Source: Candidatus Andersenbacteria bacterium RIFCSPHIGHO2_02_FULL_46_16
GTDB lineage: Bacteria; Patescibacteriota; Andersenbacteria; UBA10190
Assembly: GCA_001817065.1 (NCBI GenBank)
Contig: MHHQ01000015.1
Span: 1,017 to 65,016, forward strand
DNA: 64,000 nt
Direction of reading: 5' to 3'
Below, in pieces: positions 3,836 to 63,926 of this stretch. Position 1 is the stretch's first letter. Every line of letters starts with the position of its first letter. Under the pieces are notes generated by a model. That model made no database searches. It was not told the origin of the DNA and saw nothing but the letters and a program-made list of their open reading frames with translations. Made by a program: the position numbers and the translations under genes.

Positions 3836-4238
3836 TATTTGTTGGTCAGGGAGAGTGATTCTGGAAGGACAGTGAGGAGGAAACTGTGTACGGGGCATAA
3901 GCTTTGTCTTTTGGCCGAACTGCCCAATGCTAATTTTTAGAGCCATCGGGGCTGATGTATGCTAAAGGGACTAGTGTTCAGCGATGGAGGATGGTGAAAA
4001 TGGGATGCTGGGGGAGACGGCTTTACTACCTATTGGGAAGATTATCAGGTGGTTAATCAGGGAGGCGGCGCTGGTGGGAATGGCATGGAGAGGACTCTTG
4101 ATAACTGCCGGAATGCTTCGTTAGGGGAACGGAGCTTTTTTATTAAACGAATGTACGGGTAAGCGTGTTTTATTATTGCCGAAACTAATTCTAGCTGGGG
4201 ATTGGTTAATGAATAAAAGAATTAGTTTTTGATCTATT

Positions 4239-4601
4239 TTATTCTTCCTTGTCTGTCAGTTTCTGTAATAGTTCACGCTTGGCTGCGTCGGCTTCCGCGC
4301 CGTCCACTGAGTCGGATGAATCTTGTTTGAATTCCCGAGCTACTTCGATAACATCTCGCTCTGTGATGCCACCGCCGCTGCGTTGTCGCAGACGCTTCAT
4401 GATGGCTTTTTTATCCTCGCCACTAAGAATGCCAATGTTGTTTAAAGCATGTTTAATATCCAGGCGTGATAGTTTGTCTTTATTGGAAGTAAAAAATAAT
4501 CCCATATTATTAATATAATTTAAGCATACAAATTTTTGCGATGGGGTGCTAGGGCATGTGTCTATGGAGAGTAATAGTATAAATGCACTATGCTTGGCCA
4601 A
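4239..4601 (-). CDS. Hypothetical protein with SHOCT-like C-terminal segment
   Basis: ORF track; apparent TTG start at 4601 or ATG at 4505; no SD seen; GILSGEDKKAIMKRLRQRSGGGITERDVIEVAREF resembles a SHOCT short C-terminal domain. Confidence 0.3.
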   Translation of the reverse strand: MAKHSAFILLLSIDTCPSTPSQKFVCLNYINNMGLFFTSNKDKLSRLDIKHALNNIGILSGEDKKAIMKRLRQRSGGGITERDVIEVAREFKQDSSDSVDGAEADAAKRELLQKLTDKEE

Positions 4602-4700
4602 AGGTTGAGAGAAAAGGGAAAATTTAAATATAGGGCGTTGAAGAATGCTTGTTGGGTAATACCTGTTTGGTTATGCGAATGGGTCAAGTTAGGATAAAAC

Positions 4701-7544
4701 ATGATGAGTGACGATGAGCTGAAGCAAACCTGGTGGGAAAGGGAAGGGATTGGTCTGGTGGCGATGCTTATAACCTGGCTAGGATTTTTTTGGCGGCAAA
4801 TATTTAACGGACAGGCTTATTGGCAGGGTGATATCGGTGTAGTCTTTTATCCGCTGGAATTTGTGTATGGAGTGTTTCAGAAAGCACGGCAGCTGCCGGT
4901 TTGGAGTACGGAGTTTGGTTTTGGTCATCCGTTATTAAGTTGGGGACAGTTAGGTTTTTTTACCCCTTTGCATGTGATGCTGCGAGAGATGGGTTTGCAT
5001 GCGCTGACTCTAATACAAGTGTCGATGATGGTGCATTTTGCGGCAGGACTGCTGGGGATGTACTGGTGGCTACGGTGGCGCAGCTGCCGATCGTTGGCAG
5101 CGGCGTTGGGGGCGATCGTGTTTGTTTTTAATGGTTACAATGTTAGTCACATCCTGCATTTAAATTTTTTTATTGGCGTCATGTTGTTGCCTTGGGGATT
5201 GGTGGCGCTGGAGGCCTTGATGAGAAAAGTGACAATAGTACGGGTAATAAATTTAGGAGTGATAACGGCGGTGATAGTGTTGAGTGCGCATGCACAGATC
5301 GCTCTATATTGTCTGCTGCTTATAATGTTGGTTGGTGTGATGTTGGTCGAACGCTGGTCTGTAAAATTACTGCTGGGCTTAGCTACTGCGGCGTTGTTGG
5401 GTGCTATGTTGTCCTCGTTGGCATGGTTGCCATTGCTGGAATTCTTGCCATATCAGGACAGGACAGGAGGCATAACAACACAGGAACTATATAATTTTAG
5501 TTATCCGCCCTGGCAGGCAATTACCTTAATCTTGCCGACTTATTTTGGGGACTTAGGAAGTCACTGGGGGGCAAACAGTTATTTGGAACTGGGATCCTAC
5601 GTTGGAATAATACCATTGCTGCTGGCAGGGGCGGGTTTAGCCTGGAGTAGAGCGCGAGGTAAGAGAGATTATGTAGCTGCGGTAACAATGTTGGTGATAG
5701 GGGCAGTGTTAATATTAGGCCGTTACTCGATTGTTTATCGTTTGTTAGTAGAAAAAGGCTTCTGGCCGCCATTTACTGCACCCAGCCGGTGGCTTTTGTT
5801 GGTGGAGTTTGCGTTGGCGTGGTTAAGCGCTCTTGGACTGAGTAAGTTCAATGGGTTGTTGATTAAAATGGAAAGGCTAGTCGGAATCATTGGTGGATTG
5901 CTGCTTGTGGGGCTGCTGCTGGCGCCATTTGTTTATAGCCAGCACTTAACTAATTGGCAGAGTGTAAAAGGGTGGGAAGTGGGATTGTCGGCAGGCGGTA
6001 TAGGTGTTTTTGTTCTGGGTGGGTTGATTGCAAGAAGACCACTATCAGTAAAGTTTTGGTCATTAATGATAGTGGGGATTGTAGCTCTGACTTTAGTATC
6101 TTTTGGTTGGCAGCTATACCCGATGGTGAACCGGAAAGAGGCTATTAAGCAAACCTCGATAACGCAAGTGCTCCTTGACTATAATAAGCAGCATGTGGTG
6201 CCGGCACGTATATACAGCGATAAAGTATTATTACGCAAAGGAGGAGAAGAAGGGGACGGGCAAGAGTTAGAAACCAAGCGGACCGGTGTATTAAGCAGTG
6301 AGCTTTGGGTGCAACAAGCTGTCCTGGCAGAAGAGAATGACTGGTCGTGCGTGAACTTGGCGATTGAGTCGGACCGCACTGGTGGCGGTATGATCGAGAT
6401 GGCGATAAGGGAGATGGACGGGCAAATGATGGTGCGGCAAGTACAGATATCATCAGGCGAAGTGACGGATGCGGGCCGACAAACGTTTTGTTTTGAGCCG
6501 ATAAAAGATAGTGGCGGGAAGCAGTACTGGATATCGTTTCAGGCAATCCATAACGGGGGGAACATCCAATTGTTTTATTGGCTGGAGGAAAGTGAGCAGA
6601 CTGGGTTGTATTTAGTGAGAGTCGCCAAGCCGACCAAGCAACAAATGGCACAATCAAAGAAGAATGCGCGACTGGCGATGCAGCTACAATATGGCCTGGA
6701 TGTGAATGATGAACAGATGCTGCTGATCAGGCATTTGAATGCGACAGTGGGAGCCAGCGGAGCGAGATGGATTGGTTCAATTTCAATTAGGCGATATCGG
6801 GATTTTGTGAAGGAGCTATTCGCTAATGATCGGGATACGGTTGATGGCGACGGTCAGCATGTGCTGATGAAGAATAGAAAGTTATTTGATTTAGCTGGGG
6901 TGACCCATTTCTCCCAGCGGTTAGAAGAAGGGGTAACGGATGCGATGTTAGATAATGGTTTTCGCTTAGTAAAACAAGAACGGGTACGCGGAGTAAATTA
7001 TCGTTTGTATGAAAATGAGCAGGCGCTGCCCCGGGCATTTATAGTGCCGCGGGCGATTATTGAGTCTAGTGAGCAAGCGACTTTAGCGGCTATGACCCGA
7101 AATGATTTTAATCCTCGTGAGATGGTGTATTTGGAAGATCCGCAGGGAAAGCTAACGACGCATGATCTGCCAGTGGTTGATAAAGTAACGGGGTCAGTAG
7201 AGGTGGTTAAACATGAACCGTCCAGAGTAGACGTGCAGGTGGATATTAATGAAGCAGGGTGGTTGGTGCTAACTGATTCCTATACTCCCTTGTGGCAGGT
7301 GTTGGTGGATGGTCAGCCAGCGGCATTGCTGATTGCTGATCAACTGTTTCGAGCGACTCGTGTGCCGGCTGGTGAGCATGTGGTTTCGTTCCAATATGAG
7401 TCATCCGCAGTGGCGCAAGCACAGCGATTGACCGGGGCTGGTTTATTATTCGGATTAGTTTTGTTTGCATTGAACGGTTTGAATATGAGAAACTTGCTGC
7501 ATGCAGGAAGTACACTTTCAGACAAAAACAAAAGAGAAAATTAG
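4701..7544 (+). CDS. Large polytopic membrane protein, YfhO-like (putative envelope glycosyltransferase)
   Basis: 947 aa with many N-terminal TM helices and a large C-terminal soluble domain; architecture typical of the YfhO family. Confidence 0.45.
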   Translation: MMSDDELKQTWWEREGIGLVAMLITWLGFFWRQIFNGQAYWQGDIGVVFYPLEFVYGVFQKARQLPVWSTEFGFGHPLLSWGQLGFFTPLHVMLREMGLHALTLIQVSMMVHFAAGLLGMYWWLRWRSCRSLAAALGAIVFVFNGYNVSHILHLNFFIGVMLLPWGLVALEALMRKVTIVRVINLGVITAVIVLSAHAQIALYCLLLIMLVGVMLVERWSVKLLLGLATAALLGAMLSSLAWLPLLEFLPYQDRTGGITTQELYNFSYPPWQAITLILPTYFGDLGSHWGANSYLELGSYVGIIPLLLAGAGLAWSRARGKRDYVAAVTMLVIGAVLILGRYSIVYRLLVEKGFWPPFTAPSRWLLLVEFALAWLSALGLSKFNGLLIKMERLVGIIGGLLLVGLLLAPFVYSQHLTNWQSVKGWEVGLSAGGIGVFVLGGLIARRPLSVKFWSLMIVGIVALTLVSFGWQLYPMVNRKEAIKQTSITQVLLDYNKQHVVPARIYSDKVLLRKGGEEGDGQELETKRTGVLSSELWVQQAVLAEENDWSCVNLAIESDRTGGGMIEMAIREMDGQMMVRQVQISSGEVTDAGRQTFCFEPIKDSGGKQYWISFQAIHNGGNIQLFYWLEESEQTGLYLVRVAKPTKQQMAQSKKNARLAMQLQYGLDVNDEQMLLIRHLNATVGASGARWIGSISIRRYRDFVKELFANDRDTVDGDGQHVLMKNRKLFDLAGVTHFSQRLEEGVTDAMLDNGFRLVKQERVRGVNYRLYENEQALPRAFIVPRAIIESSEQATLAAMTRNDFNPREMVYLEDPQGKLTTHDLPVVDKVTGSVEVVKHEPSRVDVQVDINEAGWLVLTDSYTPLWQVLVDGQPAALLIADQLFRATRVPAGEHVVSFQYESSAVAQAQRLTGAGLLFGLVLFALNGLNMRNLLHAGSTLSDKNKREN

Positions 7545-10254: not shown

Positions 10255-10348
10255 GTTGGTTAGTGAACAGGCGATACGGGGTCGAGGAGTGGGCTAACTG
10301 CTTTTTTTAGTTAATTTATTCTTCTTTTTCAGGGAGAGAAACGGGCAT

Positions 10349-10483
10349 GTAACTGCTCACTGGTCTAGGAAGACTATTGGCTAAGATAAGACGTTATAAT
10401 TTTTCACTTTTAAGAAAACCTTCTTTTTCTGGCTCTAAATATGGCTTAACCTAGTAATCCACCCTTAACCTGTGAGCAGTTAC
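10349..10483. mobile_element. 135-bp MITE (copy 1) with 12-bp perfect TIRs gtaactgctcac/gtgagcagttac, flanked by 8-bp TSD ACGGGCAT
   Basis: Same 135-bp sequence (about 4 substitutions) recurs at 43384-43518; direct repeat acgggcat at 10341-10348 and 10484-10491. Confidence 0.75.
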
Positions 10484-10595
10484 ACGGGCATGGGTTGACA
10501 AAATGCTTGTGGTGTGATATATACTATACGTAGTGTTTTTAATGCTTGTTCGTTTCAATTTTGTTTCTTCGTACCTCAAGAAAGAGAGGGTCAAG

Positions 10596-13994: not shown

Positions 13995-14065
13995 GAAAAT
14001 TTGGGTCGAGAAAAGTTTTCACTCCTTGTTAATTCTAATAATGAAAAATTTTGGAGCCAGATATG
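13995..14065. repeat. Island repeat module A (AAATTTGGG + covarying hairpin + CCAGATATG)
   Basis: Homologous to modules at 14816-14890 and 17204-17280; interrupted at its 3' end by the 172-bp GC-rich element. Confidence 0.6.
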
Positions 14066-14233
14066 GAAGTCACATTATGAAATGCCACAAATATAGTGAC
14101 GGGCCCTGTCGGCGCTGCACCCCCACCCGACGGCTTCGGCCTGCCAGGCGGGCAGCCTGCAGGCGCTCGGTGGGGGTCCCCCGCGCCGCCACCCGTTTAT
14201 TTAAGAGTGGCATTTCATAATGTGACATCTATA
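14062..14233. repeat. 172-bp GC-rich palindromic element, copy 1
   Basis: Identical except 1 nt to copies at 41665-41836 and 45464-45635; 20-bp perfect TIR gtcacattatgaaatgccac / gtggcatttcataatgtgac; ~75% GC core. Confidence 0.8.
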
Positions 14234-22609: not shown

Positions 22610-23650
22610 TTAGATTAGGTATTTCTTGATAGAGATAGCTAATCCAAGCGAACCCATAACGATTGAGGCAACACTGGTTGCACCGGCGCCGGTGGCAGCT
22701 GTCACCGGAACTGGGATGGGTGAAGTGGGTTGGGTCGTAGTTACTGCTTTGACACCACCTGGTATAGACACGATAGTGGTGTCTGTGTCGGTGTCGGAGA
22801 GACCCTTGTTTTCACTACGGGCTTTAACGGAATTGACTAGAGATTTGCCGTCTGAGGCATCTTTATCAACTTTAACTTCGACAAAGAAGGTTAATGTTTC
22901 GCCGCCACTGATAGCGATATCAGACCAGGTAATTGTGCGGCCTTCGATGAATCCGCCGCTAGATACTCGAGTGATAGCGACTAAACTAGGAATGGTATCG
23001 GTTACTACTAGATCATCAACAGTTCCTTCCCCATCATTTTTGACAGTGATTTCGTAGGTTAGGACATGGCCGGGACGAGTGATAGCGCGATGATCCGTTT
23101 TAGTCACTGTTAAGCTAGCTGCCTTATCGTTATCGTCTTCTGGTTCAGGGGAAGGACTAGGACTGGGTGATGGAGATGGCGAGGGACTGGGTGATGGTGA
23201 AGGACTGGGACTTGGACTAGGACTGGGTGATGGAGATGGACTTGGAGACGGAGATGGTGAAGGACTGGGACTTGGACTAGGACTGGGTGATGGAGATGGA
23301 CTTGGTGATGGAGATGGTGAAGGACTTGGACTTGGAGACGGAGATGGTGAAGGACTTGGACTGGGTGATGGAGATGGCGAGGGACTTGGACTGGGTGATG
23401 GAGATGGACTAGGACTGGGTGATGGAGATGGGCTTGGAGACGGAGATGGTGAAGGACTTGGACTGGGTGATGGAGATGGGCAAGGGGAGGGGCTGGGTGA
23501 GGGAGAAGGTGTTGGAGAGTCACAGTAACATGCAGCGTCCGTGCTTTTTGGATTTATAAACGCTGATGCAGTTCCTGCTATCGCTACGATCAAAGTTATC
23601 GCAAGGAGGCGATTGATCCATTTGATTTTGTTTTGATTATCGCCGGTCAT
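22610..23650 (-). CDS. Cell-surface protein: signal peptide, long (Ser-Pro)n linker, DUF11-like conserved repeat domain, C-terminal TM anchor
   Basis: About 75 SP dipeptides; [42 protein letters not shown] is DUF11-like; C-terminal hydrophobic [12 protein letters not shown]. Confidence 0.7.
23150..23520. repeat. Tandem hexanucleotide repeat (SP codons) with nested 60-bp higher-order period
   Basis: 60-bp units at 23198-23257 and 23258-23317 are identical; ggagatgg/ggtgatgg units throughout. Confidence 0.8.
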
Positions 23651-34029: not shown

Positions 34030-34460
34030 CACAAATAAAGCACAGTACATAAAATACAAACAAAACAACGAATGACCAAATCCTAAATCCTAAAAGAGTG
34101 AAGTGTTAAGAAATCCAAATGTCAAAATCCAAATGTCAATTCAATGGCAAATGTCAAATTTTTACAATTTACAATTTTTCCCTAAGGGATCCTTTCGGGA
34201 CAACTTTCAAATAAATATCAATGCTTCAATTTTCAAACAGCGAAATATGAAATCCTAAATCCTAAACTGGAGAAATCCGAAACAAATAGAATTGTTAAAA
34301 AATCCAAATGCCAAAATCCAAATGCCAATTCAATGACAAATGTCAAAATTATAAATAAATCCTAAAACCTTAAATCCTAAACAAATCAGAATAACGAAAA
34401 ACTAAAAACGAAGAACGTAAAACAACAATGCAAAATTGAAAACCCCCTGCTACGTTCTAA
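34030..34460. repeat. A-rich low-complexity mosaic repeat region (AAATCCNAAAT / CAAATGTC units) with an internal ~170-bp duplication
   Basis: 34079-34145 and 34248-34340 are imperfect duplicates; related blocks at 41464-41620, 42655-42900, 45690-45810, 52930-53170 and 55890-56010. Confidence 0.7.
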
Positions 34461-41545: not shown

Positions 41546-41664
41546 AAGAAGTCTATAAATCCAAATGTCCCTCCTTCGCATAAAGTTTTGGGTGACAAGT
41601 CGGAAGCGTAGGCAAAACACAAAACTATAAAACTTTATCCCAAAGGAACCCCCTAGGGGCAAAC

Positions 41665-41836
41665 TATGGAAGTCACATTATGAAATGCCACAAATATAGT
41701 GACGGGCCCTGTCGGCGCTGCCCCCCCACCCGACGGCTTCGGCCTGCCAGGCGGGCAGCCTGCAGGCGCTCGGTGGGGGTCCCCCGCGCCGCCACCCGTT
41801 TATTTAAGAGTGGCATTTCATAATGTGACATCTATA
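41665..41836. repeat. 172-bp GC-rich palindromic element, copy 2
   Basis: Differs from copies 1 and 3 by a single A to C change (gctgcccccccacc). Confidence 0.8.
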
Positions 41837-41946: not shown

Positions 41947-42654
41947 ATGAAAGCAGTTGTATTGGTGGCGGGGAAGGGGACGAGAATGGCTAAATATTAT
42001 GAGGGGCCTAAACATTTGTTGCCGGTGGCGGGCAAGACGGTAATCGAACACGCTTTAGATAACTTACCGGCAGAGATTGATGGGTTGGTGATGGTGGTAG
42101 GTGGCCCTCATGAGAATAAAATAAGGGATTTCTTTTCAGCGGGAGAGTATCAAGGGAGGCCAATCGAGTTTGTGGTACAGAAGGATCAGTTGGGTTTAGC
42201 GCATGCGTTTAAGTGCGCCGCACATCTCGTGGAAGGTCGCTGGCTTGGCATGGTGGGTGATGATATTTTTGGTCCCAAAGGGATGCAAGGACTGGTTGAT
42301 AATGACTTGGCCGTATTGGCCTCGCGGGTGGACCATCCGGAAAATTTTGGTGTTTTAGTAGGAGACGAGGAGGGGTTTTTGGTCAGGTCCTTGGAGAAAC
42401 CTAAGGAATTCATCTCCGACTTAGTATGGAATGGCGCGATGGTAATGGATCAATCTTTTTTTGAGATGGATATTGCGCCCTCCGCACGGGGAGAATATGA
42501 AACGCCGGATGTGTGGATGGAGTTGATAAAACGGGGAAGGAAAATAAAGATTGTCGAAGCAGATTTCTGGCTGCCGATTAACGACAAAGATCAGTTGGAA
42601 GAAGCGGAGAAAATAATAGAAGAAATCCGAAAGCTGAATAGAAATAAATCCTAA
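41947..42654 (+). CDS. Sugar-phosphate nucleotidyltransferase (NTP_transferase family)
   Basis: MKAVVLVAGKGTRM... N-terminal G-x-G-T-R nucleotide-binding signature. Confidence 0.7.
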   Translation: MKAVVLVAGKGTRMAKYYEGPKHLLPVAGKTVIEHALDNLPAEIDGLVMVVGGPHENKIRDFFSAGEYQGRPIEFVVQKDQLGLAHAFKCAAHLVEGRWLGMVGDDIFGPKGMQGLVDNDLAVLASRVDHPENFGVLVGDEEGFLVRSLEKPKEFISDLVWNGAMVMDQSFFEMDIAPSARGEYETPDVWMELIKRGRKIKIVEADFWLPINDKDQLEEAEKIIEEIRKLNRNKS

Positions 42655-42900
42655 ATACTTTGATTAAATGACCAATGTCCAATGACCAATGTCCAATCAA
42701 ATCCTAAATCCCAATGTCCAAAAACGCGTAAATTAATAGCACAAATTTCAAAGTCCAAACAAAACATAATGCTACAAACTCTACAAACCATAATAAATCG
42801 GTAACAAACCATAACACGCGGGAATCAAGGATGAAGAATAATGAATCAAGGAAGTGAAAAACGTAAAGCAAAAAGTGTAAAGCAACAGTGCAAAGTTTAA
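42655..42900. repeat. A-rich low-complexity mosaic repeat region
   Basis: aatgaccaatgtccaatgaccaatgtccaatcaaatcctaaatcccaatgtcc; related to 34030-34460 and 45690-45810. Confidence 0.65.
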
Positions 42901-43235
42901 AAATAGCGACGATACTGGTTTTCAGTAATAAGTTAATTTGTGAATTGAGCATAGTTTTTTCTTTCTGTCTTGGGTGGTACTACACTGCGATAAAATAATA
43001 ATTGTCTTTGATGCTGATCGGTTGGGCATGGTTTTGGCGCATAATTAACAGGTAGTTGGCCTATATCAGCCATTTATAAAAAGAGGGTTTCCAAAATATA
43101 GACCTATTTAAGTCTCAATTTTAAGTCATGCAACAAAGAAAAACTTGACATTATTGAGGTATTAAGGTAAGGTAATAGTTCTTGTTATTTGACAAACGAA
43201 TGGTGTTGTTGGCCATAGGGAAAAGGGAGGTCTAT

Positions 43236-43810
43236 ATGCTGAAAGTGTTTTTAAGGTTTCGCGGGATTTCGGATGATGTCAAAACGATATTTGATAAGGA
43301 GGCACCCTTTAAGAAGATTATTGCAGAAATGCAAGGGATCAGCATGCCAACTATCACTTCTTCTGTTCGTATGGCTACTAAGGGTAACTGCTCACTGGTC
43401 GAGGAGGACTATTGGCTAAGATAAGACGTTATAATTTTTCACTTTTAAGAAAACCTTCTTTTTCTGGCTCTAAATATGGCTTAACCTAGTAATCCACCCT
43501 TAACCGGTGAGCAGTTACTACTAAGGAATGCTCTGAAAATATCCAGAGACTTGTAGCAGCGGAGGGTGAAGCTAAAGATGTTGAAATTGAAATTGATGAT
43601 GTATCAATGAATCTTTATGGAGACAGCGATTTTTCCTTTGAAGTCGTTGGTGATGGGATCTGGTTGACAATTGGGGGTGGTCTTAAGCTATTCTTTCAAG
43701 GTAAAAGTGCGGGTTATTTTACGGAGGCAATGACTGGAATCCTAGGAACCTTGAGTCGACTAAATCATGTCATTAGCGATTTCCCTTTTAATCCTAAGGA
43801 AGATGATTAG
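43236..43810 (+). pseudogene. Gene for an approx. 144-aa hypothetical protein split by a MITE insertion
   Basis: Strong SD AAGGGAGG before ATG 43236; removing the element (43384-43518) plus one copy of the TSD joins ORF 43236-43424 in frame to ORF 43607-43810. Confidence 0.7.
43384..43518. mobile_element. 135-bp MITE (copy 2), TIRs gtaactgctcac/gtgagcagttac, 8-bp TSD TACTAAGG
   Basis: TACTAAGG at 43376-43383 and 43519-43526; element is about 97% identical to copy 1 at 10349-10483. Confidence 0.8.
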
Positions 43811-44008
43811 CCAGACGATGATAACGATGATGACCCGTTGTGAAAGCATTATGGCCATTCAGTTTAGACTGAGTGGCTTTTTATTTATTTAATACGAGAT
43901 TTACAGACGGAGCGGTAGACCCTCCTTCGTCTGTCAAATGGGCGGACTTCGGAAGGGTGGAAGGTACTCAATTCTCGTTGGTATATTTTGTTAAGTAATA
44001 CTGACAGG

Positions 44009-45349: not shown

Positions 45350-45463
45350 AGGATGCTTAAAATTGATAAAATCTTGATGGAAGGTGCTAGATAAGGTCGG
45401 ATTAGCCTAGTGCTAAACGACCAATAAGGGGCTTAAAATGTAAGGAAGCGCAATATAGAGAAC

Positions 45464-45635
45464 TATGGAAGTCACATTATGAAATGCCACAAATATAGTG
45501 ACGGGCCCTGTCGGCGCTGCACCCCCACCCGACGGCTTCGGCCTGCCAGGCGGGCAGCCTGCAGGCGCTCGGTGGGGGTCCCCCGCGCCGCCACCCGTTT
45601 ATTTAAGAGTGGCATTTCATAATGTGACATCTATA
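45464..45635. repeat. 172-bp GC-rich palindromic element, copy 3
   Basis: Identical to copy 1. Confidence 0.8.
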
Positions 45636-45689: not shown

Positions 45690-45810
45690 GGGGAATGAAT
45701 CAGAATGACCAATGATCAATGACCAATGCCCAATCAATGACAATGGTTAAAATTTTCAATTTCCAATTTTCAAATAAGTATCAAGGTATCAATTCTCAAA
45801 CAGTGAGGAA
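45690..45810. repeat. A-rich low-complexity mosaic repeat
   Basis: gaatgaccaatgatcaatgaccaatgcccaatcaatgac...caaataagtatcaaggtatcaattctcaaacagtga; 45761-45808 is similar to 34204-34248. Confidence 0.65.
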
Positions 45811-52929: not shown

Positions 52930-53170
52930 ATATAAATACTCAAATCCTAAATTCTTAAATCCGAAACAAATTTGAATATTTAAAACTGAAAACGTCCTGC
53001 TACGCTAATGCTTTATTTTTTGGATGAAGCCTCGGACGAAAGGTCTGAAGGAAAAGTAAGGCGTAAAATCAAAATGTCAAAGGCCAAATGTCTATTCAAA
53101 TCCAAATGTCAAAGAAGGCAAGAATAAAAGCTTAGTGTCCAAACCACAAAATCCCAATACCAAAAAAATC
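52930..53170. repeat. A-rich low-complexity mosaic repeat
   Basis: caaatcctaaattcttaaatccgaaacaaat...aaaatcaaaatgtcaaaggccaaatgtctattcaaatccaaatgtcaaag. Confidence 0.6.
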
Positions 53171-62291: not shown

Positions 62292-63926
62292 TAAGTTTGC
62301 TGCCGTGGATTTTTCTGAGTCTGGCAGGGGGCTGCTTGTCTTAGCATTGATGATAGCTGCGACTTTGGCCGCTGCGTCGGATTGGTCTGGTGAGGTATAG
62401 TAAACAATGGTTTGTGGAGCTGTTTTGATGGCGGCATTTCCGATAGCGGTGACTTGGTAATCCTCGGCGGTGAGTTTGTCGCTGGTTCGTTTAGCTAAAC
62501 CGGTAATAGTTGTGCCGTTGCGTACCTCAATAGTGGGCAAGGAGATGGATGTGACGACGGGTGATGGAGTGGGGGAGGCACTAGGGCTAGGACTGGGAGA
62601 ATGGCTTGGTGAAACAACGGGAGGGATGGACTCTTTAATGGGTTCCGCTGTTTGATCTAGGATACTCGAGGCTATGGCTTGCAGTTCAGAATAATCGCCA
62701 GTGCGAGTGCGAAGAATTGAGGCTGGTACGCCGCCGAGTATTTCTGTTCCGCCAACCAGTATCCCTTTGGTGCCAGAGGTTAAAACAACCGAGTGGACTT
62801 GGGAGGGTTCGACGGCGCGGACTATTTCATAGAGACGCTTCATTTCCCAAAGCTGCATGTCGGTTCTGATATTATCGGAAACAGAATTAAGGATGGCGTT
62901 GAGTTTAGTAAAATCAAGGGCTGTCTGGACCGAAAAGACTTTGTCGCGAGCGGCGAGCAGAACTTGTTGCTGTCTGGCGGCGCGTTTGAAGTCCCCACCT
63001 TCGGGACCTTCAATGTAGCGGGCTCGAACATAAGCCAGAGCACGCTCGCCGTTCATTTTTTCCGTACCAGCCGGAAAAGATATTTTATGCCAATAATCAA
63101 AGAATGAATTATCGATGGTGATATTGATGCCCCCAATAGCATCAACAATGCTTTTAAAAGCAGTAAAGTCGACGCGGGCATAATAGTGAATAGGCTGGCC
63201 GGTAATGTTTTCCACTAATTTACTTAAAAGGATGGGACCATCGTCGACCTTTTGTGATTCGCCATAGGCGTGAACGGCGTTGATCTTACTGTAAAAATCG
63301 CGTCCCGGTACTTGGACATAAAGATCGCGGGGGATGGACATCAAAGAAGCGCGGTTAGTATACGGGTCCAGGCTGGCTATCATAATGGTGTCAGCTAATG
63401 CTTCTCCTTTATGCCCGTCACCGCCGACAGCAATTAACATGATATTGATTCGTCCTTCACTCTCACCCTCTAGCATGGAGCCTTGTTTAAGCAATAAGTC
63501 TTTTAACTGTCCGAGGATTGATCGGTCGGTCACGGTTATTTTATCCCCGGCGGCAATGATCTTATAACCAAAAATACCGACGCCGATGATAATCAATATC
63601 GTAATTAGGATAGCTGATCGCTTGAACCAAGAGTGTTTTTTGGGGCTGCGTCGGACGTGGTTTTGTCGACGGTCAGAGTGGATGGTGGACGTATTCTGGT
63701 GGGCCAGGTTGGTATGTCTAGTTATGTTAGATGGATGGGTTGGTGGTAAGCTAGGCTGGTCAAGTCCATAGCGGCGTTTAATGACCCCAAAGGCTCGTTT
63801 GTGCGGATTAGGTGACGGTTGTCTAATCATGTGAATAAAGTTGAAGCGTGGGGTTCTTTTACGAATTATATCTGCAGCTATGCTAGGCCAAAGAGAAGGA
63901 TTGAGCAAGGTTAGTAAATTATGCAT
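62262..63926 (-). CDS. LCP family (LytR-CpsA-Psr) cell-envelope phosphotransferase with SP-rich linker and LytR_C domain
   Basis: N-terminal TM helix; LCP core MLIAVGGDGHKGEALADTIMIASL...SIPRDLYV; SPSPSPSASPTPSP linker; C-terminal LytR_C-like region; 3' end overlaps pth by 30 nt. Confidence 0.8.
   Translation of the reverse strand: MHNLLTLLNPSLWPSIAADIIRKRTPRFNFIHMIRQPSPNPHKRAFGVIKRRYGLDQPSLPPTHPSNITRHTNLAHQNTSTIHSDRRQNHVRRSPKKHSWFKRSAILITILIIIGVGIFGYKIIAAGDKITVTDRSILGQLKDLLLKQGSMLEGESEGRINIMLIAVGGDGHKGEALADTIMIASLDPYTNRASLMSIPRDLYVQVPGRDFYSKINAVHAYGESQKVDDGPILLSKLVENITGQPIHYYARVDFTAFKSIVDAIGGINITIDNSFFDYWHKISFPAGTEKMNGERALAYVRARYIEGPEGGDFKRAARQQQVLLAARDKVFSVQTALDFTKLNAILNSVSDNIRTDMQLWEMKRLYEIVRAVEPSQVHSVVLTSGTKGILVGGTEILGGVPASILRTRTGDYSELQAIASSILDQTAEPIKESIPPVVSPSHSPSPSPSASPTPSPVVTSISLPTIEVRNGTTITGLAKRTSDKLTAEDYQVTAIGNAAIKTAPQTIVYYTSPDQSDAAAKVAAIINAKTSSPLPDSEKSTAANLLIVLGLDAE

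What the first reader, a model, noticed from the sequence alone, without database searches (positions are those of the whole stretch)
43236..43810. A gene split by a MITE insertion with an 8-bp target-site duplication; precise in-silico excision restores one 144-codon ORF
The 135-bp element at 43384-43518 has TIRs gtaactgctcac/gtgagcagttac and is flanked by the direct repeat TACTAAGG (43376-43383 and 43519-43526). Deleting the element plus one TSD copy (143 bp) fuses ORF 43236-43424 to ORF 43607-43810 in frame. The join is seamless (...SSVRMATK|ECSENIQRLVAAEGEAKDVEIEIDDVSMNLYGDSDF...) and gives a 144-aa protein with a strong SD (AAGGGAGG) and a plausible promoter. The downstream half has no start signals of its own, which supports a recent insertion. 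This is base-level evidence that the MITE family is or was recently active, and 8-bp TSDs point to an IS256, ISL3, IS1595 or IS66-like mobilising transposase.
Basis: seen in the sequence. Interest (0 to 1): 0.8.

Follow-up and report, generated by a model that had tools for sequence, protein, structure and literature searches.

The report
MITE insertion splits a small gene
A 135-bp non-coding mobile element (a MITE) has jumped into a small, fast-evolving gene of unknown function in an uncultured groundwater bacterium (Candidatus Andersenbacteria) and cut it in two; relatives still have the gene whole, so this is a clean but ordinary case of gene disruption by a transposon.

Summary
The finding is supported. 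The 135-bp element (43384-43518) has perfect 12-bp terminal inverted repeats and is flanked by the 8-bp direct repeat TACTAAGG. A second copy (10349-10483, 98% identical) is flanked by a different 8-bp repeat, ACGGGCAT. A sister lineage has exactly one ACGGGCAC at that second site and no element, which is a true empty site. A third copy lies outside the window. Removing the element plus one repeat copy gives a 143-aa ORF (144 codons with the stop). Both halves have gene-typical codon usage. An exhaustive HMMER search found six intact homologs of 145-152 aa that align end to end. One of them sits in the same gene order (NTP-transferase, X, UDP-glucose dehydrogenase, MFS) in the sister lineage. 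The family motif SS(V/A)R(I/M)ATK ends exactly at the junction. "Recent" means only after the split from the sister lineage, because every sampled contig of this species carries the insertion. The mobilising transposase was not found; the GTAAC start and 8-bp duplication fit IS66 best, but this is untested. Unexplained: the first 22 nt of the element are identical to a conserved 23S rRNA segment. This is a known kind of event in a little-studied phylum.

The parts
43223..43230 (+). Shine-Dalgarno AAGGGAGG, 5 nt upstream of the ATG of the disrupted gene
   Evidence: Read directly. The start is supported by homologs that begin at the aligned Met (MLKVFLRFRG versus MLMLNLRFRG, MIRVFLKLED).
43236..43383 (+). 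5' part of the disrupted gene: codons 1-49 plus the first base of codon 50. It ends in the conserved family motif SSVRMATK.
   Evidence: Coding score is 0.258 bits per codon against a gene mean of 0.274, and no off-frame chunk reaches it. It aligns to residues 1-49 of six intact homologs.
43376..43383 (.). Left copy of the 8-bp target-site duplication TACTAAGG. It encodes (A)TK of the conserved motif.
   Evidence: Codon comparison with L051 (ACT AAG) and L052 (ACG AAG).
43384..43518 (+). MITE copy B, 135 bp. TIRs at 43384-43395 and 43507-43518. No coding capacity.
   Evidence: 98% identical to copy A. Stops in all six frames. Folds as a hairpin with a 16-position terminal stem, z = -4.05. No Rfam family.
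43384..43424 (+). Element-encoded tail (GNCSLVEEDYWLR plus TAA) that ends the truncated 62-aa product
   Evidence: ORF list. The same 62-, 74- and 80-aa products are annotated in several Andersenbacteria MAGs.
43519..43526 (.). Right copy of the target-site duplication TACTAAGG
43527..43810 (+). 3' part of the disrupted gene: the rest of codon 50 through codon 143, plus the stop. It has no start signal of its own before the SD-less ATG at 43607.
   Evidence: Coding score is 0.268 bits per codon, equal to the gene mean. It aligns to the C-terminal two thirds of the homologs. P(open for 94 codons by chance) is about 8e-4.
43853..43888 (+). Intrinsic-terminator-like hairpin plus T-tract, 43 nt after the stop codon
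   Evidence: 11-pair stem, 5 GC pairs, followed by TTTTTATTTAT.
10349..10483 (+). MITE copy A (intergenic), in the same orientation as copy B
   Evidence: The sister lineage (L055, L056) lacks it precisely.
10341..10348 (.). Left TSD of copy A, ACGGGCAT
   Evidence: The empty site has a single ACGGGCAC.
10484..10491 (.). Right TSD of copy A, ACGGGCAT

Best explanation
A 135-bp non-autonomous DNA transposon (MITE) inserted into codon 50 of a real 143-codon gene and duplicated 8 bp of target (TACTAAGG). Its 12-bp perfect terminal inverted repeats are GTAACTGCTCAC. The host is a Candidatus Andersenbacteria (Parcubacteria/CPR) genome. The gene belongs to a small, lineage-restricted, fast-evolving family of unknown function that lies between an NTP-transferase gene and a convergent UDP-glucose dehydrogenase gene. 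Shown: the element, its TIRs and TSDs; its mobility, from three copies at different sites and an orthologous empty site; the reality of the gene, from gene-like codon usage in both halves, six intact colinear homologs and one syntenic ortholog; and the exact position of the break inside a conserved motif. Inferred: translation now stops 13 codons into the element and yields a 62-aa fragment. The 3' two thirds are not translated because they lack a start signal, so the gene is inactivated. The element was mobilised in trans by a DDE transposase that makes 8-bp staggered cuts. An IS66-family enzyme fits best (8-bp TSD, ends starting GTAAC), but its gene was not found. The loss is probably tolerated because the gene is dispensable: another relative (L050) lacks it entirely.
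For: Element and footprint. Empty site for copy A: the sister lineage L055/L056 has ...GAGA-ACGGGCAC-GGGTTGAC... where the window has ACGGGCAT-[135 nt]-ACGGGCAT, and the intergenic length is 198 versus 341 nt, a difference of 143. Third copy: L060 has variant pattern G/A/T, left flank CCCGAGAA and right flank CCC. No coding capacity. Gene reality: coding scores of 0.258 and 0.268 bits per codon against a gene mean of 0.274, with none of the off-frame or antisense chunks as high; terminator; six intact homologs with E from 2.6e-23 to 7e-5, each matched in one stretch over roughly residues 1-140; alignment with the conserved SS(V/A)R(I/M)ATK ending at the junction. Syntenic ortholog: L052 has NTP-transferase (94.6% aa), X (152 aa, 43.7%), UGDH (95.1%) and MFS (88%). 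The AF2 model from the 7-sequence alignment is a single beta-rich domain with a strand at residues 46-52 across the junction (pLDDT 66.8). Not an assembly artefact: 43100-43900 is identical in 8 contigs from different assemblies. Organism: exact protein matches to Andersenbacteria/Parcubacteria MAGs.
Against: No intact allele of this same species was found. The nearest intact ortholog is only 44% identical in protein, so the pre-insertion sequence is inferred and not observed. No autonomous element with these ends was found in the window or in any fetched locus, so the mobilising enzyme and family are unknown. The protein family has no known domain or fold match, so a functional consequence cannot be stated. 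The structure model has only moderate confidence. Both halves are still free of further stops or frameshifts and the allele is invariant. That fits a young pseudogene but does not exclude some residual use.
Confidence: 0.93

Rival explanations
1. The interrupted gene is still expressed as a functional product. This could happen by removing or bypassing the 143-nt insert at the RNA or translation level (the duplicated ACTAAGG would supply matching take-off and landing codons around a strong hairpin), or as two separate polypeptides that associate.
For: Identical 8-bp sequences flank the insert. The element folds into a stable hairpin (z = -4.05). Both halves keep gene-typical codon usage with no extra stops. 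The allele is invariant across 8 assemblies.
Against: Known programmed bypassing spans about 50 nt (phage T4 gene 60, established knowledge), far less than 143 nt. The element has stops in all frames. There is no intron-like or ribozyme RNA family match. The 3' half has no SD or in-frame start before 43607. At a few percent divergence the absence of extra stops is expected anyway: my estimate is about 0.4 stops expected at 2% divergence. Other copies are intergenic, so the element is not gene-adapted.
Confidence: 0.03
2. There never was a single gene. The two ORFs (62 aa and 67 aa) are independent small genes or chance ORFs, and the element merely sits between them. The in-frame fusion is a one-in-three coincidence.
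For: In-frame fusion occurs for 32% of arbitrary deletions. MAG annotations list the two halves as separate hypothetical proteins. The word-indexed search found no intact homolog.
Against: Six intact 145-152-aa homologs align to the fused sequence in one stretch. A conserved motif abuts the junction. There is a syntenic intact ortholog. The 3' half lacks start signals.
Confidence: 0.01
3. The 135-bp repeat is not a transposase-mobilised MITE. It is another kind of dispersed repeat (REP/BIME-like, an rRNA-derived fragment, or a recombination-inserted palindrome) whose flanking 8-bp repeats arise by another mechanism.
For: No parent IS with matching ends was found. Only three copies are known. 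The terminal 22 nt are identical to a conserved 23S rRNA segment, which is unusual for a transposon end.
Against: Perfect TIRs, exact 8-bp duplications of unrelated sequence at each copy, and a precise empty site together are the classical footprint of DDE transposition. Similarity to 23S is limited to the terminus, and the interior scores no better than shuffles.
Confidence: 0.03

Closest known systems
Bacterial MITEs that disrupt or sit next to genes (for example Correia/NEMIS elements of Neisseria, RUP of Streptococcus pneumoniae, Nezha of cyanobacteria); named from general knowledge
   Same: Small (about 100-300 bp) and non-coding, with terminal inverted repeats, target-site duplication, several near-identical copies, a hairpin-forming transcript, and insertion both between and within genes.
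   Different: A different sequence family and host phylum (CPR/Parcubacteria). The known copy number is very low (3). No parent IS has been identified.
IS66-family insertion sequences as the candidate mobiliser
   Same: As I recall from ISfinder, the family makes 8-bp target duplications. The ends start with GTAA; GTAACCGTCCGGGCA and GTAAGCGTCCGG... are quoted for IS66 members in PMC12888890, against GTAACTGCTCAC here.
   Different: Only the first 5 nt and scattered positions match. No IS66 TnpA, TnpB or DDE transposase gene was found near any copy. IS256, ISL3, IS1595 and IS6 also make 8-bp duplications.
Rickettsia palindromic elements (RPE) inside protein-coding genes (from general knowledge)
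   Same: A palindromic repeat found inside an ORF of a reduced-genome bacterium.
   Different: RPEs are inserted in frame and translated as part of the host protein. This insert is 143 nt (not a multiple of 3), has stops in every frame and truncates the protein.
Short insertions in CPR rRNA genes (PMC11270868)
   Same: The same group of organisms. Many are short (250 bp or less), ORF-less insertions at recurrent sites. The element's terminus is identical to a 23S rRNA segment.
   Different: Those are insertions inside rRNA genes, and no TIRs or TSDs are reported for them in the passages read. This element lies in a protein gene and an intergenic spacer and carries the 23S-like sequence as its own end, not as flanking exon.

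Membership tests
MITE (non-autonomous derivative of a DDE transposon) | Small size (under about 500 bp) and no coding capacity | tested here: met
   135 bp, with stop codons in all six frames.
MITE (non-autonomous derivative of a DDE transposon) | Terminal inverted repeats | tested here: met
   12 of 12 perfect, extending to 16 positions with one mismatch. Identical in both window copies.
MITE (non-autonomous derivative of a DDE transposon) | Target-site duplication of fixed length with a different sequence at each copy | tested here: met
   TACTAAGG (copy B), ACGGGCAT (copy A), and CCCGAGAA with CCC... (copy C, right side cut by the contig end).
MITE (non-autonomous derivative of a DDE transposon) | Orthologous empty site with a single copy of the target | tested here: met
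   L055 and L056 have a single ACGGGCAC at the copy A site. For copy B, the intact syntenic ortholog in L052 has ACG AAG at the equivalent codons.
MITE (non-autonomous derivative of a DDE transposon) | Multiple dispersed, near-identical copies | tested here: met
   Two copies in the window (97.8% identical) and a third in L060. Contigs break inside the element (L047, L060). The whole-genome copy number is not known.
MITE (non-autonomous derivative of a DDE transposon) | A related autonomous IS with the same ends in the same or a related genome | tested here: inconclusive
   None in the 64-kb window or in 64 fetched loci. The multicopy IS next to copy C has unrelated ends, CTGTGAATTACGAAACTCC.
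IS66-family-derived element | 8-bp TSD and ends beginning GTAA | tested here: met
   8-bp TSDs. GTAAC start compared with the IS66 ends quoted in PMC12888890. These features are not exclusive to IS66.
IS66-family-derived element | A parent carrying TnpA, TnpB and a DDE transposase (DDE_Tnp_IS66) with matching TIRs | not testable with these tools
   No parent was found, and no further scan of the genome or metagenome collections was allowed.
In-frame palindromic insert (RPE-like) | Insert length is a multiple of 3 and it is translated through | tested here: not met
   143 nt inserted, with stops in all frames.
Self-splicing intron or other known structured RNA | Match to a group I or II intron or another Rfam model over the insert | tested here: not met
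   No Rfam match over 43384-43518 at gathering or E <= 1.

The most novel reading that the evidence does not exclude
The transposon's ends are not arbitrary. The terminal 22 nt (GTAACTGCTCACTGGTCGAGGA) are a copy of the universally conserved 23S rRNA segment at about E. coli positions 1093-1114, the 3' side of the L11/GTPase-associated centre. On this reading the MITE, or its unknown parent, was built from or targets rDNA-like sequence, making it an rRNA-derived or rDNA-mimicking mobile element in a phylum already known for unusual rRNA-gene insertions. By my rough estimate, a 22-nt exact match between a 135-nt element and any rRNA variant in the collection has a chance probability of about 1e-4 to 1e-2. 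Against this reading, the identical variants are Phycisphaerales-type and none of the rRNA hits was labelled as CPR.
Probability: 0.12. Interest if true: 0.55.

Novelty: new member of a known kind. Interest (0 to 1): 0.3.

Why it matters
It gives a fully documented case of transposon activity in a CPR/Parcubacteria genome: filled site, empty site, intact ortholog and three copies. These are organisms with roughly 1-Mb genomes that are usually described as streamlined, and I found no description of MITEs in them in the searchable literature. It also corrects the public annotation. The two 'hypothetical proteins' of 62-80 and 67 aa in several Andersenbacteria MAGs are halves of one pseudogene. 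Finally, it defines a small, previously unnoticed protein family (seven members including the rebuilt protein) that evolves far faster than its neighbours (44% versus 95% identity) at a conserved position next to nucleotide-sugar genes. None of this changes how MITEs are thought to work.

Tried and rejected
(1) The word-indexed homolog search with the rebuilt protein found only the truncated 80-aa fragment. The exhaustive HMMER search found the intact family, and a profile search added nothing new.
(2) The metagenome-contig scan with the protein found only the same contig, 100% identical to the window. Exact look-ups of the intact 143- and 161-aa versions were not in the collection.
(3) The genome-collection scan with an end pattern, meant to find the parent IS, returned 38 hits, and about 32 of them were one 23S rRNA site. 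The non-rRNA hits (for example L004) look like chance.
(4) The idea that the DDE_Tnp_1 IS in L049 is the parent was rejected. Its ends are unrelated, and the same IS occurs elsewhere without the element. L049 itself is a join of copy C (left) and copy B (right) through the repeat.
(5) BLAST of the element against plasmids and an exact scan of viral contigs found nothing.
(6) My first guess of an N-terminal helix-turn-helix was not borne out by the alignment-based model, which is beta-rich. The single-sequence model was useless (pLDDT 36).
(8) Searching for other copies through element-encoded peptides was abandoned because every frame is closed.
(9) The 23S similarity does not extend beyond the terminal 22-23 nt.
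(10) No degenerate copies or solo ends are present in the window.

Full report
**1. Observation.**
- A 135-bp segment at 43384-43518 begins with GTAACTGCTCAC and ends with its exact reverse complement.
- It is flanked on both sides by TACTAAGG (43376-43383 and 43519-43526).
- Deleting the element plus one repeat copy (143 bp) joins the ORF that starts at ATG 43236 to the frame that ends at the stop at 43808-43810.
- The result is a 143-aa product (144 codons with the stop) that reads ...SSVRMATK|ECSENIQRLVAAEGE....
- The SD AAGGGAGG is 5 nt upstream of the ATG.
- Between the element's in-frame stop and ATG 43607 there is no in-frame start codon, and 43607 has no SD.
- An in-frame fusion on its own is weak evidence, because 32% of arbitrary deletions across this interval also give an open frame.

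**2. The element is a mobile repeat.**
- A second copy lies at 10349-10483. It has 3 mismatches in 135 nt, the same orientation and the same perfect TIRs.
- It is flanked by a different 8-bp repeat, ACGGGCAT.
- The window holds no further copies or fragments.
- The element has stops in all six frames.
- It folds as a long hairpin, z = -4.05 against shuffles.
- It matches no Rfam family.

**3. Organism and population.**
- The flanking proteins are exact matches to proteins of Candidatus Andersenbacteria/Parcubacteria MAGs: GW2011_GWA2_45_14, the RIFCSP MAGs, GCA_001817135.1 and GCA_003501005.1.
- In those MAGs the two halves are annotated as separate hypothetical proteins of 62-80 and 67 aa.
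- Ten contigs from different samples and assemblers were fetched through the 67-aa product. All carry the element's right junction at this site.
- In eight of them, 43100-43900 is base-for-base identical to the window.
- The junctions are therefore not an assembly artefact, and no intact allele of this species is on record.
- One contig starts inside the element (L047). This is a typical assembly break at a repeat.

**4. A third copy.**
- L049 shows the element with the window's right flank but a different left flank (...CCCGAGAA|GTAAC), next to a tmRNA gene and an IS with a 268-aa DDE_Tnp_1 transposase.
- An independent assembly (L060) has the same left context. Its element reads G/A/T at the three sites where copy A reads T/A/T and copy B reads G/G/G. 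Its right flank begins CCC before the contig ends, which fits a TSD of CCCGAGAA.
- L049 reads G/A/G, so it is a join of copy C and copy B through the repeat.
- The neighbouring IS has unrelated ends (CTGTGAATTACGAAACTCC) and occurs at other sites without the element (L057, L058). It is not the parent.

**5. Empty site.**
- Cluster neighbours of the genes flanking copy A led to L055 and L056. These come from a sister lineage and from the same JGI sample as L052.
- There the spacer is 198 nt instead of 341 nt, a difference of exactly 143 nt.
- It reads ...GAGA-ACGGGCAC-GGGTTGACAAAATG.... That is one copy of the 8-bp target with no element.
- This is direct evidence that the element is an insertion that duplicates 8 bp. 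It also shows the insertion happened after the two lineages split.

**6. The split ORF is a real gene.**
- Codon usage: a model trained on 25 long ORFs of the window scores the 5' half at 0.258 and the 3' half at 0.268 bits per codon in the proposed frame. Real genes average 0.274, and no off-frame or antisense chunk of a real gene scores as high.
- Terminator: a terminator-like hairpin follows the stop.
CPR promoters may not fit the consensus.
- Homologs: an exhaustive HMMER search of 1.84 billion representatives found six intact proteins of 145-152 aa (30-45% identity, E down to 2.6e-23). Each aligns to the rebuilt protein in one stretch over essentially its whole length.
- Junction: in the alignment the conserved motif SS(V/A)R(I/M)ATK ends exactly at the junction. 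The homologs then continue into ...L(V/M)AAEG.A.DV, as the rebuilt protein does. The TSD is (GC)T ACT AAG G, which covers the T and K codons of that motif plus one base on each side. L051 has ACT AAG and L052 has ACG AAG there.
- Synteny: in L052 the intact 152-aa homolog sits in the same order as in the window, NTP-transferase, X, convergent UDP-glucose dehydrogenase, MFS transporter.
- Structure: an AlphaFold model from the 7-sequence alignment is moderate (pLDDT 66.8, pTM 0.49). It shows a single beta-rich domain with a long C-terminal helix, and a strand at residues 46-52 crosses the junction.

**7. What the gene is.**
- Its function is unknown. There is no Pfam, PHROGs or PADLOC match for any member.
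- The gene evolves unusually fast. Between the window and L052 the neighbours are 95%, 95% and 88% identical in protein, but X is 44% identical, and no DNA similarity is detectable across it.
- A more distant relative (L050, 83-85% DNA identity in the flanks) lacks the whole ~1.3-kb block. Only 161 bp separate the two flanking genes there.
- The gene is therefore dispensable and variable, which fits its loss being tolerated.

**8. Mechanism.**
- Shown: the insertion, the duplication, the frame break and the premature stop.
- Inferred: the product is now a 62-aa fragment (49 native and 13 element-encoded residues), and the 3' two thirds are silent.
- The mobiliser is unknown. An 8-bp TSD fits IS66, IS256, ISL3, IS1595 or IS6 (my recollection of ISfinder).
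- The GTAAC start resembles IS66 ends quoted in PMC12888890 (GTAACCGTCCGGGCA, GTAAGCGTCCGG...). This is a lead and not a membership test.

**9. How recent.**
- The insertion post-dates the split from the L052/L055/L056 lineage.
- The TIRs and TSDs are still perfect, and neither gene half has acquired a stop or frameshift.
- However, copies A and B differ by 2.2%, the allele is fixed and invariant in all samples, and at that divergence I estimate only about 0.4 new stops would be expected.
- 'Recently active' is reasonable on an evolutionary scale. Present activity is not shown.

**10. Unexplained.**
- The end pattern GTAACTGCTCACNGGTYNAGG hit 38 places in the genome collection. About 32 of them are one homologous site in 23S rRNA. 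L012 was confirmed as LSU rRNA, with the match about 1,060 nt into it.
- From my memory of the E. coli sequence, this corresponds to about positions 1093-1114, at the L11/GTPase-associated centre.
- Phycisphaerales-type 23S sequences are identical to element positions 1-22. The interior of the element shows no rRNA similarity.
- By my rough estimate such a match has a chance probability of about 1e-4 to 1e-2.
- None of the rRNA hits was labelled as CPR, and the host's own 23S could not be retrieved, so I cannot tell coincidence from descent.

**11. Verdict.**
This is a new member of a known kind: a MITE insertion that makes a pseudogene. It is well documented here, and it occurs in a phylum for which I found no description of MITEs in the searchable literature.

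Noticed in passing
window 43384-43405 and 10349-10371; L012 6637-6659 and other 23S loci L003-L039: The first 22-23 nt of the element (GTAACTGCTCACTGGTCGAGGA) are identical to a conserved 23S rRNA segment of Phycisphaerales-type sequences, at about E. coli positions 1093-1114 (L11/GTPase-associated centre; position from memory). The similarity stops at the terminus. None of the rRNA hits was labelled as CPR. It is unlikely to be chance by my rough estimate, but it remains unexplained.
   Followed up: partly
window 14053-14233, 41656-41836, 45455-45635: This is a second MITE-like family: 181 nt, 3 copies at 97-100% identity, about 45-nt imperfect inverted ends and a very GC-rich core in a 45% GC genome. 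Two copies bracket the NTP-transferase...UGDH block in direct orientation. Both are absent from the sister lineage L052. There is a clean empty site at the third copy (...GAGAAC|TGGGTCTT...), and the ends suggest a TA target.
   Followed up: partly
window 42655-43915 versus L052 1331-2090 and L050 1025-1185: The locus between the NTP-transferase and UGDH genes is hypervariable. The syntenic gene X is 44% identical in protein where the neighbours are 95% identical, with no detectable DNA similarity. The whole block is missing in a third relative (L050).
   Followed up: partly
window 43780-43886 (+): There is a sub-threshold, full-length Rfam match to the Vibrio Qrr sRNA model (43.1 bits against a gathering score of 50). 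It covers the 3' end of the split ORF and its terminator. It rests mostly on hairpins, the terminator and a few shared motifs (UAGCCA, GACG). The region shows no detectable DNA similarity to the sister-lineage locus L052. It is probably a false positive.
   Followed up: partly
L049 949-1982; L057 and L058 about 3915-4950: This is a roughly 1-kb IS with a 268-aa DDE_Tnp_1 transposase and 19-bp ends, CTGTGAATTACGAAACTCC. It is multicopy in this species: it appears in 26 index blocks, mostly on contigs under 2 kb. In L049 and L057 it lies beside the tmRNA and SmpB genes. It is not present in the window.
   Followed up: partly
window 34063-34381, 42615-42723, 45693-45757, 52940-53119: Short AT-rich motif arrays (CCAAATGTCAAA, AATGACCAATGTCC, AAATCCTAAATCC) recur just downstream of several genes. 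The 82-aa minus-strand ORF at 42704-42952 lies in one of them and is probably spurious.
   Followed up: no
window 23088-23576 (within the minus-strand ORF 22610-23650): This is a long array of 6/12/18-nt periodic repeats (GGTGATGGAGATGG / GGACTTGGACTGGG) inside a 346-aa ORF. A related stretch lies at 62559-62609. It would encode a highly repetitive, low-complexity protein segment.
   Followed up: no
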